A DNA stretch of 38,940 bases from a virus. The notes under the pieces are model-generated. The model saw only the letters and a list, made by a program, of their open reading frames with translations. It did not search any database and was not told the DNA's origin. The translations under genes and the position numbers were made by a program. The DNA lies in the IMG/VR virus record IMGVR_UViG_3300045988_115954. One strand, 5' to 3'. Positions 24,013 through 27,026 of this stretch are shown here, piece by piece (positions within the stretch are counted from its first letter, which is position 1; every line of letters starts with the position of its first letter).

Positions 24013-24801
24013 TCATCTCACGACGTACTGATAATACTTAGCGAGTTTGTCCGGTCCGGCGTCCTTGTCGTCCAGGAACGCTTTCGCCATGTCCACGTAG
24101 AAGTCGATATTGCTCCCCACGTTGAACTTTTTGGCGACCTTGACATAATCGCTGTAGATCATGTTGAGGGCCGCCCAGAACTCCGCAGGGTCGCACTCGA
24201 TCCCGCGCTGGGCCATGACCTGCTTGGCCTGCTCAAACGACCAATGAGGCCCCTTTGTGCCGTCCTCATTTTCCATATTGGCGGTCCATTCCTCCGCCAT
24301 GCGGCGGTCGAAGGGCATGTGCCCGGAAGCGGCTCCATAGCCACTCATTCGCTCTCCACCTCTCCGGTATTCCATTTCGTTCATGCGGTAGTCGTGTTCA
24401 AACTCCCTGGGGGTCTTCATTTCACCCTCACCAGAAATGGCGAATCCGATCTTATTCATGGGCCTAGTCATCTCCCGTCTATCAGTATAGGCCGGAGGCA
24501 TATAGTATGGATAGCCATAGTGGGACTGAGGGCCCGTCATGCGGTCATCCCAGTAGTTGCTCTCCACCCACGTCCCACCATCATTGCGAGGGGCAAAACG
24601 GCCATCAGAATATCGACGATATCCCCGGTCCTCCGGCTCCATCATCTCAGAACGAGGCGCATACCGACCGTTGTCATAGTGCTCCCGGCCACGGCGGTCA
24701 CGGAATTTATCATCAACATCGTAGTTTTCATAGCTCCGTCCATCGTTGTAGCGGCGATTGCTGCCACTGGACATGAGCATCATCCGTGTGGATCGTTTCA
24801 T
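24013..24801 (-). CDS. Cargo protein P262: Arg/Tyr/Asp/Met-rich disordered N-terminal ~170 aa plus a compact helical C-terminal domain. Function unknown.
   Basis: SD AGGAGGG. The motif DGR(Y/F)APR occurs twice. The C-terminus is HWSFEQAKQVMAQRGIECDPAEFWAALNMIYSDYVKVAKKF...KLAKYYQYVVR. Confidence 0.7.
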   Translation of the reverse strand: MKRSTRMMLMSSGSNRRYNDGRSYENYDVDDKFRDRRGREHYDNGRYAPRSEMMEPEDRGYRRYSDGRFAPRNDGGTWVESNYWDDRMTGPQSHYGYPYYMPPAYTDRREMTRPMNKIGFAISGEGEMKTPREFEHDYRMNEMEYRRGGERMSGYGAASGHMPFDRRMAEEWTANMENEDGTKGPHWSFEQAKQVMAQRGIECDPAEFWAALNMIYSDYVKVAKKFNVGSNIDFYVDMAKAFLDDKDAGPDKLAKYYQYVVR

Positions 24802-24813
24802 TTTGATCCCTCC

Positions 24814-25209
24814 TTACGCCGTAGGGGCGGGAGCAGCGCCCCCGTCAATGCTGGTTAGGTTGTTGCTGGGGGAGCAGCAGGGAGTGCCCAGCATACGGAA
24901 CGAACCTCCGGTTGGGGTAGTAACGACACAGAGAGAGTATTTGGTCCGGGTACGGATGCCACAGGCGGTGACCTGAGCGCAATTCCGCTTTGTCATCGGA
25001 TAGAGAGTGGTCCCGGTCCCGATAGTAAAATACACCGGAGCATTGATGGTAGTGGTGTCGGGGATGGCCTGACCCACGACCACGCAATACTTCTCTCCGT
25101 TGTTGTAGGAACCAGCAGGAAGGTTGATCTCCAGGTTTCCACCGGTAAAAGCGACCGCCTGAGAGATCACAAGCCGGTCACAGAGTCTGCATACAGGTTT
25201 ACAAGACAT
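24814..25209 (-). CDS. Cargo protein P131: Cys-rich, predicted beta-rich small protein. Function unknown.
   Basis: ATG 25209 follows GGAGG. It starts MSCKPVCRLCDR and has GTPCCSPS near the C-terminus. I counted 9 Cys. Confidence 0.7.
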   Translation of the reverse strand: MSCKPVCRLCDRLVISQAVAFTGGNLEINLPAGSYNNGEKYCVVVGQAIPDTTTINAPVYFTIGTGTTLYPMTKRNCAQVTACGIRTRTKYSLCVVTTPTGGSFRMLGTPCCSPSNNLTSIDGGAAPAPTA

Positions 25210-25219
25210 AATTACCTCC

Positions 25220-25256
25220 AAAAATCAGGGGCGGCAGACACTCAGCCCACCGCCCC
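25220..25256 (-). terminator. Internal hairpin plus T-run (attenuator or partial terminator) within the cargo operon
   Basis: On the minus strand, ggggcgg-15 nt-ccgcccc is followed by tgattttt and then immediately the SD of the next gene. Confidence 0.55.
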
Positions 25257-25307
25257 GAAATAGTCACGGCAGAGCCGGAAAGTTAATTGCCTCGATTTTG
25301 ATGCAAT

Positions 25308-26069
25308 TTAGCAGCCACAGCCGCAGCCATTGTTATAGGCCCCGCAGTAGGGATAGGGGGCGGGCACCTGATAGGCGGGCACAGGCATGGGGTTGATCCG
25401 GCGGATCAGCTCAGAGGTCTGGGCATCCAGAGTAGCGGTCAGGTAGCTGTTCTGGTTGGCCTGAGAGGCAGCCAGCTTGAGAGACTGATTCTCCGCCTGG
25501 AGGGAATCGATCTTGCTCTGAGTCAGGAAGTCCAGAATGGCGCGGGTGTTGGAGTTGTTATTCTCCAGGATATCGCGGGTGCTGCCCTGGATGGTGTTCT
25601 GGATGGCGCAGGTATTGGTCGCCATGTTGTAATTCACACCATCGATGGCCCGCTGGGTCTGGCAGCAGCAATCCTGAGCCTGAGCGGCCATATTGCACAT
25701 CTGAGACTGGACACCGTTGAAGCCCTGAAGCAGAGCCACATTGGTGTTGTTGAAGCCGCTGGTGATGCTGTTGTTCAGGGCATAGGTGCTGTCACAGATG
25801 CCCTGCTGGATAGCAGAGATGCCGCGCTCCACACCATTGAAGGCAATGGCCTCGTTTACATCTGCACGAGTGGCAAGGCCCTGGAGTCCGGGATCAGTGC
25901 TGGCACCGCCACCGCCGAAGCCGCCGAAACCACCGCGGCCCCAGCCGAAGATCATGGCAAAGATGATGATAGCCCACCAGCCGTCACCGCCCCAGAAGCC
26001 GCCGTTGTTACAGTTGCCACCATTGGAATCGCTGCCCAGCGCATAGCCAGTCGCAAAATCGTTATCCAT
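25308..26069 (-). CDS. Cargo protein P253: membrane-anchored Gly/Trp-, Asn/Gln- and Cys-rich protein. Function unknown.
   Basis: SD AAGGAG. Features are GGFWGGDGWWAIIIFAMIFGWGRGGFGGFGGGG, a CCC motif, a coiled-coil segment, and a C-terminal YCGAYNNGCGCGC. Confidence 0.7.
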   Translation of the reverse strand: MDNDFATGYALGSDSNGGNCNNGGFWGGDGWWAIIIFAMIFGWGRGGFGGFGGGGASTDPGLQGLATRADVNEAIAFNGVERGISAIQQGICDSTYALNNSITSGFNNTNVALLQGFNGVQSQMCNMAAQAQDCCCQTQRAIDGVNYNMATNTCAIQNTIQGSTRDILENNNSNTRAILDFLTQSKIDSLQAENQSLKLAASQANQNSYLTATLDAQTSELIRRINPMPVPAYQVPAPYPYCGAYNNGCGCGC

Positions 26070-26175
26070 TGTATATACTCCTTTATCAGTTATTACATCG
26101 GGGCCGTACGCTCCCCGGATGTTTCCAAAGAGCGGTTTTTATCAAGACCCGAAAACTGATAAAGAGTGCGCTATT

Positions 26176-26412
26176 TTATTTCATCGGAATCCCAAGCTGT
26201 CTTGCGATTTCCTCAACTGTGGTCCCTCTCTGCTTTGCCATGTTCTCCGCGGTCTGGCGAAGCTGCTGGGGATTCTTCCCCTGGATGAGCCGCATAGCCT
26301 GGGCGGCCTGTGGGTTTTGCCCGGCCATTTGCTGGAGCATTTGCATAGGATTTCCGCCGTTCCGCGCCATCTGGAGCATAGCCATCATGGGATTATTCAT
26401 CGGAGGCATCAT
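26176..26412 (-). CDS. Cargo protein P78: Met/Gln/Pro/Asn-rich small protein. Function unknown.
   Basis: Sequence begins MMPPMNNPMMAMLQMARNGGNPMQMLQQMAGQNPQAAQ.... It overlaps the upstream gene by 20 nt. The SD is weak. Confidence 0.55.
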   Translation of the reverse strand: MMPPMNNPMMAMLQMARNGGNPMQMLQQMAGQNPQAAQAMRLIQGKNPQQLRQTAENMAKQRGTTVEEIARQLGIPMK

Positions 26413-26881
26413 TCTTTTTCACTGCCTTTCCAGCGGGCTTTTTCAGTCTGTCCACCTCATCTTTTAGGTTTTGCACTGTGTCCTTCATGTCTATAAACTC
26501 GTCCAGTGGAGCAAAGGCCGCCACCTGCGCAGGGGCTTGTTGCTGTTTTTCTCTGGGTACATCGAGCTTAAACTCGAACACATCAGCTGCACCGCTGTTG
26601 GTGTTGAATCGTTTCATGTAGACCACATTATGGGCAAGGTCCGGGAAGAACATTGGAGCACCCATAAAGTCTACCGGGACCCCAAGCGCCTCCTCTCGGG
26701 AGGCCACAGGACGGCAGAAAAAGTTAGGCTGTGTGTTTGTACTTCCAACCGTCTGCGCGGCCTGTACGGGCTGCGGAGCGGGCTGCTGCATAGGCTGGTA
26801 GATCTGTGGAGCGGGCGCAAACGGAGTTACTGGGTTGTATCCGCCATAAGCGGGGTATGTATAATTAGGAAATCCGGCCAT
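26393..26881 (-). CDS. Cargo protein P162: Pro/Gln/Tyr-rich N-terminus, small globular core and charged C-terminus. Function unknown.
   Basis: SD GAAGGAGG. Sequence MAGFPNYTYPAYGGYNPVTPFAPAPQIYQPMQQPAPQP...FFCRPVASREEALGVPVDFMGAPMFFPDL. Confidence 0.7.
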   Translation of the reverse strand: MAGFPNYTYPAYGGYNPVTPFAPAPQIYQPMQQPAPQPVQAAQTVGSTNTQPNFFCRPVASREEALGVPVDFMGAPMFFPDLAHNVVYMKRFNTNSGAADVFEFKLDVPREKQQQAPAQVAAFAPLDEFIDMKDTVQNLKDEVDRLKKPAGKAVKKNDASDE

Positions 26882-27026
26882 TGTCCAGCGCCTCCTTCCT
26901 CGCTTCTACTTCATCCACGTATTTTTGGAGCCCATAGTCATCCCCCTGGGCCTGATACCACATCACACTCTCGGCGGCACAGTCCGGTCGGATGCCGGCG
27001 GCCACCAGCCTTTCTACCGGGGTCAT
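26865..27026 (-). CDS. Cargo protein P53 (53 aa). Function unknown.
   Basis: Below the track cutoff. Sequence MTPVERLVAAGIRPDCAAESVMWYQAQGDDYGLQKYVDEVEARKEALDNGRIS. The SD is AAGGACG and the ORF overlaps the next start. Confidence 0.5.
   Translation of the reverse strand: MTPVERLVAAGIRPDCAAESVMWYQAQGDDYGLQKYVDEVEARKEALDNGRIS

What the first reader, a model, noticed from the sequence alone, without database searches (positions are those of the whole stretch)
24013..27026. Six-gene orphan cargo operon of Cys-, Gly-, Gln/Met/Pro- and Arg/Tyr-rich proteins between the lysis cassette and attP
The slot between the endolysin and the attachment site is the classic moron / lysogenic-conversion position. 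It holds six co-directional minus-strand ORFs of 53, 162, 78, 253, 131 and 262 aa. Most have strong SDs (GAAGGAGG, AAGGAG, GGAGG, AGGAGGG). A terminator sits at 23984-24009.

I cannot assign any of them to a virion, lysis, defence or enzymatic family. Every one is compositionally extreme:
- P162 has a Pro/Gln/Tyr-rich N-terminus.
- P78 is Met/Gln/Pro/Asn-rich (MMPPMNNPMMAMLQM...).
- P253 has a TM helix flanked by Gly/Trp runs (GGFWGGDGWWAIIIFAMIFGWGRGGFGGFGGGG), an Asn/Gln-rich helical region with a CCC motif, and the tail YCGAYNNGCGCGC.
- P131 starts MSCKPVCRLCDR, carries GTPCCSPS near its C-terminus, and has 9 Cys.
- P262 has a ~170-aa Arg/Tyr/Asp/Met-rich disordered region with a duplicated DGR(Y/F)APR motif, fused to a compact helical domain.

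This combination resembles cross-linked surface assemblies of Firmicutes, such as spore coat, exosporium or appendage proteins. Compare Cys-rich CotY/ExsY- or Ena-like subunits, the Gln/Met/Pro-rich GerQ N-terminus and YjcZ-like Gly-rich TM peptides. That resemblance rests on composition and architecture only, not on demonstrated homology.

A phage-borne, co-regulated set of such proteins would be an unusual lysogenic-conversion cassette that remodels the cell or spore surface. A sigma region-4-like gene and a toxin-like module lie directly upstream.
Basis: partly seen in the sequence, partly recalled or inferred. Interest (0 to 1): 0.8.

Follow-up and report, generated by a model that had tools for sequence, protein, structure and literature searches.

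The report
Mobile fibre-like accessory cassette of gut phages
The six odd-looking genes are real, but they are one copy of a movable gene set found in many gut phages, from Clostridia phages to crAss-like phages of Bacteroides, and it most likely builds a stalk-and-knob fibre for the phage rather than remodelling the host's spore coat; its function is untested.

Summary
Observation confirmed. The six minus-strand ORFs, their Shine-Dalgarno sites, their compositions and the terminator are as described. All six are under strong purifying selection (dN/dS 0.02-0.13).

Interpretation largely wrong.
- None of the six matches CotY/ExsY, Ena, GerQ or YjcZ.
- The cassette is a conserved, mosaic, mobile module. 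P253 (phrog_16490) has at least 8000 protein clusters. DUF7841 (P262) has 1542 clusters at 50% identity.
- It lies after lysis genes, after tail-fibre genes, inside head modules or next to integrases.
- It occurs in Butyrivibrio phage Ceridwen, which has no integrase and was only seen lytic.
- Two of its families, with positional analogues of the rest, occur in a Bacteroides uniformis phage and in crAss-like phages. A spore-specific role is therefore excluded.

What it probably is.
- P253 has a hydrophobic anchor, a roughly 105-residue helix and a Cys-rich tip.
- The P131 model resembles parts of phage tail-fibre proteins. In other phages P131 is replaced by a BclA_C/C1q-like protein, and the last 14 residues of P253 switch with it.
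- Best reading (about 0.4): an exchangeable stalk-plus-knob accessory fibre with assembly factors, expressed with late genes.
- A Rfam RAGATH-31 RNA forms its leader.

The parts
27635..27895 (-). 86-aa sigma-70 region-4-type HTH protein ('sig4'), the usual upstream companion of the cassette
   Evidence: Pfam Sigma70_r4 at E 8e-6, 25.7 bits, above the cut-off of 24.1. A small HTH gene precedes the cassette in L001, L004, L006, Ceridwen, L085, L005, L096, MH552500 and C3_41T2LP. It is absent in Dulem virus 36. dN/dS is 0.19.
27136..27160 (-). Terminator-like hairpin that insulates the cassette from upstream genes
   Evidence: 9-bp stem followed by a T-run. In relatives the sequence differs but the hairpin is kept.
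27056..27109 (-). RAGATH-31 RNA (Rfam RF03101), the structured 5' leader immediately upstream of P53, followed by a U-run
   Evidence: 83.2 bits against a gathering score of 71.8, E 4e-17, full length 1-54/54. It folds at -32.4 kcal/mol, z = -5.2. The region is nearly invariant in 34 distinct upstream sequences. The same motif precedes P53 in L083.
26865..27026 (-). P53, small helical protein, first gene of the cassette
   Evidence: ORF. dN/dS 0.13. Conserved in position in relatives. A 68-aa analogue sits in Ceridwen. No family match.
26393..26881 (-). P162: Pro/Gln/Tyr-rich N-terminus, a central domain that looks beta-rich by eye (not modelled) and a C-terminal coiled coil; core member
   Evidence: Weak phrog_21718 match (E 1e-3). 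The type-B 172-aa counterpart hits that PHROG at E 1e-47. dN/dS 0.09. Positional analogues with the same layout occur in Bacteroides and crAss-like phages (phrog_28898).
26176..26412 (-). P78, Met/Gln/Pro-rich 78-aa protein; core member in Bacillota phages and a possible assembly chaperone (inferred)
   Evidence: dN/dS 0.017, the most constrained gene. Counterparts of 66-81 aa occur in L001, L002, L004-L006, Ceridwen and Dulem virus 36. The type-B form is phrog_22984.
26100..26118 (-). Conserved short hairpin (GGGGAGCGTACGGCCCC) in the P78-P253 spacer, just before the P253 ribosome-binding site
   Evidence: Conserved across diverged loci, including L085 and L086. Function unknown.
25308..26069 (-). 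P253, the universal core protein: acidic N-tail, Gly/Trp/Phe-flanked hydrophobic helix, long Asn/Gln/Ala-rich helices with an invariant CCC, and a Pro-rich, Cys-rich C-terminal tip (putative stalk)
   Evidence: phrog_16490 at E 9e-81. At least 8000 homologous clusters. Invariant positions include C134-C136, C154 and a C-terminal GCGC. The AF2 model is poor (pLDDT 47); its secondary structure shows helices at 31-41, 83-113 and 121-225. A homologue in Bacteroides phage C3_41T2LP hits phrog_16490 at E 1e-46. GenBank annotators of crAss-like phages labelled homologues 'spike protein/glycoprotein' or 'outer capsid protein/viral fiber'.
25228..25256 (-). Strong hairpin plus T-run between P253 and P131 (attenuator or partial terminator)
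   Evidence: 12-bp stem, -25.1 kcal/mol, z = -4.8. Conserved in relatives that keep the short spacer.
24814..25209 (-). P131, Cys-rich small beta protein (putative exchangeable knob)
   Evidence: 2824 homologues with no Pfam family. C3, C7, C42, C77, C83, C111 and C112 are invariant. AF2 model pLDDT 72 with 8 strands. BFVD fold matches to parts of phage proteins named tail fibre or collagen-like (E 1e-4 to 1e-2) and to crAss-like small proteins. Replaced by a BclA_C-like protein in L082-L084.
24013..24801 (-). P262: Arg/Tyr/Asp-rich region with conserved linear motifs, plus a C-terminal DUF7841 helical domain
   Evidence: Pfam PF25223 at E 5e-35. 798 homologues, all DUF7841 only. Motifs are shown in alignment A2. 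1542 clusters at 50% identity. DUF7841 scores above the curated cut-off in cr125_1, MH552500 and C3_41T2LP.
23980..24011 (-). Intrinsic terminator that closes the cassette
   Evidence: 13-bp stem, -23.7 kcal/mol, z = -6.2, followed by UUUUU.

Best explanation
The six genes are the local copy of a widespread, mobile accessory module of gut tailed phages. It serves the phage's lytic cycle, not the host's spore. It most likely builds a fibre-like appendage.

Proposed roles:
- P253 supplies a hydrophobic anchor, a long alpha-helical stalk and a Cys-rich tip.
- A small beta-sandwich protein docks on that tip as a knob. Here it is P131; in other phages it is a BclA_C/C1q-like protein.
- P162, P78, P53 and the DUF7841 protein P262 act as assembly, attachment or chaperone factors.
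- The module is expressed with the late genes. In this lineage it is gated by an upstream terminator, the RAGATH-31 leader RNA and usually a small sigma-region-4 HTH protein.
- The product would act in adsorption or adhesion, either on the virion or after release at lysis.

Shown: the genes are real; the module is conserved; it is mobile and dispensable; it spans phages of two bacterial phyla; it co-orients with neighbouring genes; the knob is exchangeable; the leader RNA is present.

Inferred: that it is a fibre, that stalk and knob bind each other, the roles of the four other proteins, and where the structure ends up.
For: 1. Real, constrained genes (dN/dS 0.02-0.13) in a conserved order with mosaic identities.
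2. The same architecture recurs in distant phages. It lies after the endolysin in the window, L002, L005, L085, L096, Ceridwen and Dulem virus 33. It follows the tailspike and receptor-binding protein directly in Dulem virus 36. It lies between the minor head protein and the scaffold plus capsid genes in L001, L004, L006, L095 and Bajarodcaudo virus 2. In crAss-like cr125_1 it lies between lysis genes and genes annotated virion structural protein, glycine zipper and tail tubular protein. In all of these it is co-oriented with its neighbours.
3. It is present in phages with no sign of lysogeny: Ceridwen (PMC7372960), crAss-like phages and plaque-forming C3_41T2LP. The cr125_1 copy has in-frame TAG codons that align with Gln, which fits late expression.
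4. The P131 model (pLDDT 72) gives BFVD fold matches to proteins named tail fiber, T7 tail fibre, tail-collar fiber, hyaluronase tail fiber, collagen triple helix repeat and minor tail protein. The best PDB match is the Pa193 baseplate and tail fibre entry (probability 0.94, E 0.085, not significant).
5. The alternative protein in the same slot matches BclA_C, the knob of a fibre, at E 4e-7 in 3 of 6 members. It is not homologous to P131 (hhalign probability 0.4%), yet replaces it in otherwise 90% identical cassettes.
6. In that swap the last roughly 14 residues of P253 change with the knob: APYPYCGAYNNGCGCGC becomes NPYTGCCGYNNCGC. The rest of P253 stays like its P131-linked relatives. This is as expected if the Cys-rich tip docks the knob.
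7. P253 has one helix of about 105 residues. Its composition is low in charge (N 12%, Q 11%, K 1%, E 3%). By general knowledge that is typical of fibres and extracellular proteins, not of cytoplasmic coiled coils. Independent GenBank annotators labelled homologues 'viral fiber' or 'spike'.
8. A BFVD entry named 'DUF7841 domain-containing protein' from a crAss-like virus (294 aa) aligns to the P131 model (E 2e-3, rmsd 2.3 over 92 columns). This hints at a fusion of two cassette components.
9. The coiled-coil part of the Bacteroides-phage analogue of P162 hits phrog_473, 'virion structural protein' (E 1e-8).
Against: - No virion proteomics, microscopy or expression data exist for any carrier.
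- The P253 model is unusable (pLDDT 47), and the helix shows no single heptad register.
- The fold matches of P131 are moderate (TM about 0.5), and nothing in PDB is significant.
- A strongly hydrophobic, membrane-type segment is unusual for a virion fibre. Its acidic N-flank is compatible with a true membrane anchor.
- Five or six co-conserved genes, three of them dominated by low-complexity sequence, is more than known fibre-plus-chaperone sets need.
- Its own HTH gene, flanking terminators and a structured leader look more like an autonomous moron than a structural gene block.
- The module is dispensable. In Dulem virus 39 and C3_41T2LP it lies among early or recombination genes.
- The tip-knob co-switch rests on one recombinant lineage of 3 contigs.
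Confidence: 0.4

Rival explanations
1. A membrane-tethered complex that acts inside the infected or lysogenic cell. P253 is a true membrane protein and recruits the soluble partners at the membrane. Possible roles are control of lysis timing, exclusion of superinfecting phage DNA, or defence or anti-defence.
For: - The hydrophobic segment is conserved in every homologue, including those of Bacteroides phages. Its N-flank is acidic (mean 2.0 D/E against 0.16 K/R).
- No partner has a hydrophobic N-terminal segment suggestive of a signal peptide, by eye from the sequences (no predictor was run).
- The module often abuts holin and endolysin genes.
- It is moron-like, with its own HTH gene, terminators and leader RNA.
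- It is dispensable and sits at variable positions.
- Components are swapped between lineages, as in arms-race systems.
Against: - No PADLOC match.
- The helical part of P253 has an extracellular or fibre-like low-charge composition.
- P131 and its alternative look like fibre knobs.
- The module is conserved from Bacillota to Bacteroidota phages and lies inside head or tail gene blocks in about six lineages, which is unusual for exclusion or defence cargo.
- The positive-inside signal is weak (0.49 K/R on the C-side).
Confidence: 0.25
2. Proteins packaged in the capsid and ejected with the DNA (pilot or ejection proteins). The hydrophobic, Gly-rich segment of P253 would insert into the next host's membrane. 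P78 would keep it soluble in the producing cell.
For: - In five lineages the cassette lies directly downstream of the minor head (MuF / Phage_min_cap2) gene. By general knowledge that is where head-packaged effectors are usually encoded.
- The partners are rich in disordered sequence.
- P253 resembles the phiX174 H pilot protein in layout (Gly-rich hydrophobic N-terminus plus a long Gln/Asn-rich helix). This comparison is from memory and was not tested.
- A PolyVal peptidase gene follows the cassette in C3_41T2LP.
Against: - Siphoviruses already have a tape-measure protein for this step.
- The module is dispensable.
- Knob-like beta domains and their exchange suggest a binding function, not a channel.
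- No homology to known ejection proteins was found.
Confidence: 0.1
3. One reading: a lysogenic-conversion cassette expressed from the prophage that deposits cross-linked Cys-, Gly-, Gln- and Tyr-rich proteins on the spore coat, exosporium or cell surface.
For: - It lies next to attP, between two terminators.
- By eye none of the proteins has an N-terminal signal peptide (no predictor was run), as in mother-cell-assembled coat proteins.
- The compositions resemble coat proteins.
- The type-B knob is BclA_C-like.
- A small GerE/sigma-r4-type HTH gene lies upstream.
- The window-type copies sit in temperate phages of Oscillospiraceae.
Against: - No match to any coat, exosporium or Ena family.
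- The cassette is in Ceridwen, which has no integrase and was only seen lytic, on non-sporulating Butyrivibrio.
- Two of its families, with positional analogues of the rest, are in phages of Gram-negative Bacteroides, including crAss-like phages.
- It lies inside head or tail gene blocks in several phages.
- No sporulation-type or sigma-70-type promoter was recognisable by eye or by scan upstream of P53.
Confidence: 0.05

Closest known systems
Accessory phage fibres with exchangeable tips and dedicated assembly factors (lambda Stf/Tfa side tail fibres, T4 long tail fibres with gp38/gp57A, phi29 head fibre gp8.5)
   Same: Non-essential and mosaic, and exchanged between phages. A helical or fibrous stalk carries a small distal binding domain, and small helper proteins are encoded alongside. 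The genes lie in or at the end of late gene blocks. The P131 model matches parts of proteins named tail fibre.
   Different: No sequence homology to any of them. Stalk and knob are separate polypeptides, apparently joined through Cys-rich motifs. The stalk has a membrane-type hydrophobic segment. There are three low-complexity partner proteins, an HTH gene and a structured leader RNA. Virion association is unproven.
BclA exosporium filament of the Bacillus cereus group (N-terminal anchor, collagen-like stalk, C-terminal TNF/C1q-like knob)
   Same: The layout is anchor, stalk and knob. In the sister (type-B) cassettes the knob matches Pfam BclA_C at E 4e-7. No N-terminal signal peptide is evident by eye (no predictor was run).
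   Different: The match is below Pfam's curated threshold (30.3 against 38 bits). It concerns the alternative protein, not P131 (hhalign probability 0.4%). There is no collagen repeat and no exosporium-targeting N-terminus. Carriers include phages of non-sporulating and Gram-negative hosts.
Ena endospore appendage subunits (DUF3992) and the Cys-rich CotY/ExsY/CotZ family
   Same: Small Cys-rich proteins with Cys clusters at both ends, as in P131.
   Different: No Pfam hit at E<=1. No PDB sequence hit. No PDB fold hit at E<0.08.
Two-component spanins (Rz/Rz1): an N-terminal membrane anchor, a coiled-coil periplasmic domain with intermolecular disulfides, and a Pro-rich Cys-containing partner
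   Same: P253 has an N-terminal hydrophobic anchor, long helices, conserved Cys and a Pro-rich, Cys-rich end. It often lies next to lysis genes.
   Different: Most carriers infect single-membrane Bacillota, which have no outer membrane to fuse. cr125_1 already has a LysB/FtsL-like gene beside it. The cassette is dispensable and can lie far from lysis genes. No homology was detected.

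Membership tests
Ena endospore appendage subunits (Pfam DUF3992) | Sequence match to DUF3992, or a jellyroll fold matching solved Ena structures | tested here: not met
   No Pfam hit for P131 at E<=1. PDB sequence search gave nothing relevant. Foldseek against PDB gave no match at E<0.08, and no Ena entry is among the 50 hits listed.
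CotY/ExsY/CotZ Cys-rich coat and exosporium proteins | Match to the Spore-coat CotZ/CotY family profile | tested here: not met
   No such Pfam or NCBIfam hit for any of the six proteins at E<=1.
GerQ spore coat protein | Match to the Spore_GerQ profile (Gln-rich N-terminus plus the conserved C-terminal domain) | tested here: not met
   P162 and P78 have no GerQ hit in Pfam or NCBIfam. Only the composition is similar.
YjcZ-like tiny sporulation membrane peptides | Match to the YjcZ/tiny-TM family profile; very small size (tens of residues, by recall) | tested here: not met
   P253 is 253 aa and has no such hit. The resemblance is limited to a Gly-flanked hydrophobic segment.
BclA C-terminal domain (Pfam PF18573) | Profile match at or above the gathering score | tested here: not met
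   P131 has no hit. The type-B replacement scores 30.3 bits against a cut-off of 38 (E 4e-7) in 3 of 6 members. It is suggestive of the fold but below threshold. P131 is not detectably related to it.
DUF7841 (Pfam PF25223) | Profile match above the gathering score | tested here: met
   P262 residues 151-258: E 5e-35, 120.6 bits against a cut-off of 25.2. Also met by cr125_1 gp032, the MH552500 155-aa protein and the C3_41T2LP 133-aa protein.
PHROG 16490 (unknown function) | Profile match over most of the length | tested here: met
   P253: E 9e-81, residues 17-253. Bacteroides phage C3_41T2LP 305-aa protein: E 1e-46.
RAGATH-31 RNA (Rfam RF03101) | Covariance-model score at or above the gathering score over the full model | tested here: met
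   83.2 bits against 71.8, model positions 1-54 of 54, at 27056-27109 on the minus strand.
Lysogenic-conversion moron | Dispensable insert with its own transcription signals | tested here: met
   A relative with the same holins and a related endolysin lacks the cassette. Terminators flank it. It has a leader RNA and an HTH gene.
Lysogenic-conversion moron | Confined to temperate phages and expressed from the repressed prophage | tested here: not met
   The cassette is present in Ceridwen (no integrase, lytic only), in crAss-like phages and in plaque-forming C3_41T2LP. Expression itself cannot be tested with these tools.
Phage tail or head fibre | Fold similarity of the distal domain to known fibre domains | tested here: inconclusive
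   BFVD matches to proteins named tail fibre at E 1e-4 to 1e-2, TM about 0.5. The best PDB match is the Pa193 baseplate and tail fibre entry, at E 0.085.
Phage tail or head fibre | Physical presence on the virion | not testable with these tools
   No proteomic or imaging data were found for any carrier.

The most novel reading that the evidence does not exclude
The cassette is not a conventional virion fibre. It is an uncharacterised multi-protein late-gene system shared by Crassvirales and by siphoviruses of Clostridia. A membrane-anchored, Cys-bridged stalk-and-knob structure assembles with Pro/Gln/Tyr-, Met/Gln- and Arg/Tyr/Asp-rich partners at the envelope of the infected cell, or on material released at lysis. 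Its role has no described counterpart; examples might be progeny protection, adhesion of lysate or particles to gut surfaces, or a new step of egress. The function-unknown RAGATH-31 and RAGATH-21 RNAs would be its cis-regulatory or processing elements.
Probability: 0.25. Interest if true: 0.8.

Novelty: new variant of a known kind. Interest (0 to 1): 0.6.

Why it matters
The module is very common in gut viromes. P253 has at least 8000 clusters at 90% identity. DUF7841 has about 1500 clusters at 50% identity. One P253 variant was seen on 405 contigs.

It links phages of Bacillota and Bacteroidota, including several crAss-like families. Every one of its protein families is annotated as unknown.

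If it is an exchangeable accessory fibre, it would bear on host range and on adhesion of abundant gut phages. It would also give DUF7841, five PHROGs of unknown function and the Rfam motif RAGATH-31 a biological context.

The work also shows that extreme 'spore-coat-like' composition next to attP is not evidence of spore remodelling.

Cultured carriers exist, so the question is directly testable: Butyrivibrio phage Ceridwen, Bacteroides phage C3_41T2LP and the Muriventricola aceti H5_61 prophage.

Tried and rejected
- Family searches. Pfam, NCBIfam, PHROGs and PADLOC scans of all six proteins gave only DUF7841 and unnamed PHROGs, and no defence family.
- Solved structures. PDB sequence searches of P131, P262, P253 and P162 gave nothing. 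A profile of the type-B knob against PDB also gave nothing.
- P131 fold against PDB. No match at E<0.08, so the Ena/CotY idea was dropped.
- P131 against the BclA_C-like proteins (hhalign probability 0.4%) and against the Bacteroides-phage beta protein (probability 0.7%). No detectable homology, so these are treated as positional analogues only.
- P253 structure prediction. pLDDT was 47, too poor for a fold search, and only the secondary structure was used.
- 'Rosetta-stone' search for DUF7841 fusions among 1.84 billion representatives. The top 150 are all small proteins of 100-390 aa, with no informative fusion.
- Sporulation-type or sigma-70 promoter upstream of P53. None was recognisable by eye or by scan. 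The conserved block there turned out to be RAGATH-31.
- Heptad analysis of the long P253 helix. No single register, so no claim about oligomeric state.
- Literature. Nothing for DUF7841, phrog_16490 or RAGATH-31. Nothing useful on endospore appendages in prophages or on crAss head fibres. The twister and hammerhead papers that might define the RAGATH-associated genes are not held.
- Spanin idea. Considered because of the anchor, coiled coil and Pro/Cys-rich end next to lysis genes. Rejected as the general function because most hosts have no outer membrane and the cassette is dispensable.

Full report
**1.
The six minus-strand ORFs lie exactly where stated: P53 26865-27026, P162 26393-26881, P78 26176-26412, P253 25308-26069, P131 24814-25209 and P262 24013-24801. 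They carry the quoted motifs. Good Shine-Dalgarno sites precede P162, P253, P131 and P262; those before P53 and P78 are weaker. The terminator after P262 has a 13-bp stem (-23.7 kcal/mol, z = -6.2) followed by UUUUU.

The window reads as a circularly permuted temperate siphovirus. On the minus strand the order is tail genes, two holins, a CHAP endolysin (27911-28606), an 86-aa Sigma70_r4 protein (27635-27895), a 59-aa membrane peptide and then the cassette. The integrase is on the plus strand at 22605-23762. Between the integrase and P262 the plus strand reads GTTGGGGGTTCGAGTCCCTTCGGCCGTACCA (23825-23855). This is a tRNA 3' end and hence the attP core. ARAGORN finds no complete tRNA.

**2. These are real genes in a conserved module.**
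Among relatives, median dN/dS is 0.13, 0.09, 0.02, 0.10, 0.07 and 0.07 for the six genes in order. The endolysin next door scores 0.28.

The order sig4-(TM59)-P53-P162-P78-P253-P131-P262-integrase recurs in about 75 IMG/VR contigs. It also occurs in a prophage of Muriventricola aceti (Oscillospiraceae), where P253 is 99% identical. Identities are mosaic: for example, P253 at 100% sits beside P262 at 55% or P162 at 75%. Flanking integrases and endolysins differ between contigs, and extra genes are occasionally inserted.

The families are large:
- P131 has 2824 homologues, with seven invariant Cys.
- P262 has 798 homologues.
- P253 has at least 8000.
- The DUF7841 domain has 1542 clusters at 50% identity.

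The genes are not entirely orphan. The P262 C-terminus is Pfam DUF7841 (E 5e-35) and P253 is phrog_16490 (E 9e-81). The 'disordered' part of P262 contains nearly invariant motifs: FRDRRGREHYDNGRYAP and RPMNKIGF.

**3. The cassette is mobile and dispensable.**
A second variant, here called type B, has the same layout:
- a small HTH protein;
- a Pro/Gln/Tyr-rich protein with a central domain that looks beta-rich (by eye) and a coiled coil (phrog_21718, which P162 also hits weakly);
- a Met/Gln-rich protein of about 75 aa;
- a P253 homologue;
- a beta protein of about 136 aa;
- an Arg/Tyr/Ser/Asp-rich protein.

Positions differ between phages:
- After the endolysin: the window, Bajarodcaudo virus 5, L005, L085, L096, Dulem virus 33 and Ceridwen.
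- Directly after the tailspike and receptor-binding genes: Dulem virus 36.
- Between the minor head protein and the scaffold plus capsid genes: Dulem virus 35, L004, L006, L095 and Bajarodcaudo virus 2.
- Next to an integrase among early genes: Dulem virus 39.

In all of these it is co-oriented with its neighbours. A phage with the same holins (holinB 100% identical) and a 76% identical endolysin lacks the cassette, and a serine recombinase follows instead.

**4. Distribution contradicts the spore reading.**
Butyrivibrio virus Ceridwen carries the complete type-B cassette after its endolysin. It was only observed lytic, has no integrase or excisionase, and was judged probably virulent (PMC7372960). 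Its host genus does not sporulate (general knowledge).

More decisive, two of the cassette families lie together in phages of Bacteroidota, alongside positional analogues of the other genes:
- Plaque-forming Bacteroides uniformis phage C3_41T2LP encodes, in order, an HTH protein, a P253 homologue (phrog_16490, E 1e-46; C-terminus ...PAPIPAYCVPNPNCCYG...GCGCGC), a beta protein, a beta-plus-coiled-coil protein, an Arg/Asp/Tyr-rich peptide and a DUF7841 protein (E 5e-16).
- The crAss-like phages MH552500 (Intestiviridae) and cr125_1 (Suoliviridae) have the same set, next to holin or lysis genes and, in cr125_1, next to tail genes. More than a dozen further crAss-like phages carry P253 or DUF7841 homologues; their neighbouring genes were not inspected.
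- In cr125_1, DUF7841 (E 3e-43) precedes the Arg/Tyr/Asp-rich tail, the reverse of the order in P262. The P253 homologue there has in-frame TAG codons that align with Gln.

None of the six proteins matches CotY/ExsY, Ena, GerQ, YjcZ or any defence family.

**5. What the parts look like.**
P253:
- It has an acidic N-tail and a very hydrophobic segment flanked by Gly/Trp/Phe runs.
- Helices follow at 83-113 and 121-225. The AF2 model is poor (pLDDT 47), so only the secondary structure is used.
- CCC, C154 and a Pro-rich end with GCGC are invariant.
- The helical part is Asn/Gln/Ala/Thr-rich with very few charges and no single heptad register.

P131:
- It folds with moderate confidence (pLDDT 72, eight strands).
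- It has no significant PDB neighbour. The best is the phage Pa193 baseplate and tail fibre entry, at E 0.085.
- Against predicted viral structures, after its own family, it matches parts of proteins named tail fibre, T7 tail fibre, tail-collar fibre, hyaluronase tail fibre, collagen repeat protein and minor tail protein (E 1e-4 to 1e-2, TM about 0.5).
- It also matches small crAss-like proteins and a 294-aa crAss-like 'DUF7841 domain-containing protein'.

The type-B protein in the same slot matches Pfam BclA_C below threshold (E 4e-7; 3 of 6 members). It is not homologous to P131.

**6. The knob is exchangeable, and the stalk tip goes with it.**
Contigs L082-L084 have P53-P162-P78-P253 of the window type (P253 90% identical). 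These are followed by the BclA_C-like protein, the type-B Arg/Tyr-rich protein and a 108-aa protein, in place of P131 and P262. In these recombinants P253 matches its P131-linked relatives up to ...RRINPMPVPAYQVP. Only the last roughly 14 residues then change: APYPYCGAYNNGCGCGC becomes NPYTGCCGYNNCGC. This is a single lineage. It is nevertheless what one expects if the Cys-rich tip is the docking site for the downstream beta protein.

**7. Regulation.**
Upstream of P53 lies a hairpin terminator (27136-27160) that is kept in relatives although its sequence differs. After it comes a nearly invariant block of about 110 nt. Its core (27056-27109) is a full-length match to Rfam RAGATH-31 (83.2 bits against a gathering score of 71.8). 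It folds strongly (-32.4 kcal/mol, z = -5.2) and is followed by a U-run.

The stem element GGACGTG recurs at the P53 ribosome-binding site (read by eye). This hints at alternative pairings, but that was not tested. No sigma-70 or sporulation-type promoter was recognisable there. A strong hairpin with a T-run separates P253 from P131 (25228-25256). A conserved small hairpin precedes the P253 ribosome-binding site.

In type-B cassettes, a RAGATH-21 RNA (Dulem virus 35) or a tRNA (L004, L006) occupies the slot just after the last gene.

**8. Interpretation.**
The best-supported reading, at about 0.4, is an exchangeable accessory fibre made for the phage. P253 is the anchor, stalk and tip. P131 or the BclA_C-like protein is the knob. 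The other proteins are assembly or attachment factors. The whole is expressed with the late genes. I commit to that reading while noting its weak points:
- the membrane-type segment;
- three low-complexity partner proteins;
- the autonomous regulatory signals;
- the complete lack of experimental data.

The main rival, at about 0.25, is a membrane-tethered complex that acts in the infected cell (lysis timing, exclusion or defence). A packaged or ejected-protein role is possible at about 0.1.

**9. Novelty.**
No paper in the held library mentions DUF7841, phrog_16490 or RAGATH-31. GenBank annotators gave the crAss-like homologues inconsistent labels: 'spike protein/glycoprotein', 'outer capsid protein/viral fiber' and 'sigma factor/ubiquitin-like'. 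I found no description of the module as a unit, of its spread across phages of two phyla, of its component swapping or of its RNA leader. Under the best reading it is a new variant of a known kind, the accessory phage fibre. If that reading fails, it is an unknown late-gene system of very abundant gut phages.

Noticed in passing
window 27228-27638 (TM59 gene 27356-27535, minus strand): The 59-aa C-terminally anchored peptide has its own promoter-like site on the minus strand (27638-27610, 11 of 12 with a TG). It faces a perfect sigma-70 consensus on the plus strand (27228-27255, TTGACA-16-TATAAT). This convergent, overlapping layout is typical of type I toxin-antitoxin pairs. Only some cassette-bearing relatives carry it.
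   Followed up: partly
window 27056-27109 (minus strand); L083 2982-3035: An Rfam RAGATH-31 RNA, a motif of unknown function, forms the leader of the cassette directly upstream of P53 and is followed by a U-run.
   Followed up: partly
L001 8822-8898; L004 12400-12473; L006 11717-11789: Immediately after the last gene of type-B cassettes lies either a RAGATH-21 RNA (Dulem virus 35) or a tRNA gene (two metagenome-assembled genomes). This suggests a shared processing or insulating role for that slot.
   Followed up: no
L087 702-774 (Butyrivibrio virus Ceridwen): A RAGATH-18 RNA lies just upstream of a 708-aa ORF (792-2918). RAGATH-18-derived RNAs were reported as guides of IS607 TnpB nucleases (PMC11061315, listed). 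Not examined further.
   Followed up: no
window 23825-23855 (plus strand): A tRNA 3'-end-like sequence ending in CCA lies between the integrase stop and the cassette terminator. This is the probable attP core for integration into a tRNA gene. There is no full tRNA in the window.
   Followed up: partly
L127 7792-9309: A close relative (identical holinB, endolysin 76%) has no cassette. It carries a 505-aa serine recombinase right after the endolysin and other cargo beyond it.
   Followed up: partly
L087 8449-9312; L088 5085-5636; L094 4006-4626: Genes annotated as, or resembling, HNH/homing endonucleases are inserted inside or at the edge of the cassette in three unrelated phages: Ceridwen (my reading of the sequence, not scanned), Dulem virus 33 and C3_41T2LP (GenBank labels).
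   Followed up: no
L092 2578-4526 (crAss-like phage cr125_1): The P253 homologue contains in-frame TAG codons that align with Gln in relatives. The genes downstream of it also contain in-frame stop codons. Together these indicate stop-codon recoding in this phage.
   Followed up: partly
L001 4702-5100; L006 8574-8987; L087 6074-6451; L004 7524-7904: Type-B cassettes are accompanied by a protein of about 130 aa with conserved Cys, His and Asp residues, which looks papain- or transglutaminase-like by eye (phrog_3754, unknown function). The window has no counterpart.
   Followed up: partly
window 8648-8687 and 9271-9318: The only near-identical DNA in the GenBank phage collection is two short stretches (40-48 nt, 95-98%) shared with Flavonifractor phages Castelnaud and Chenonceau. 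No sequenced isolate is close to this phage.
   Followed up: no
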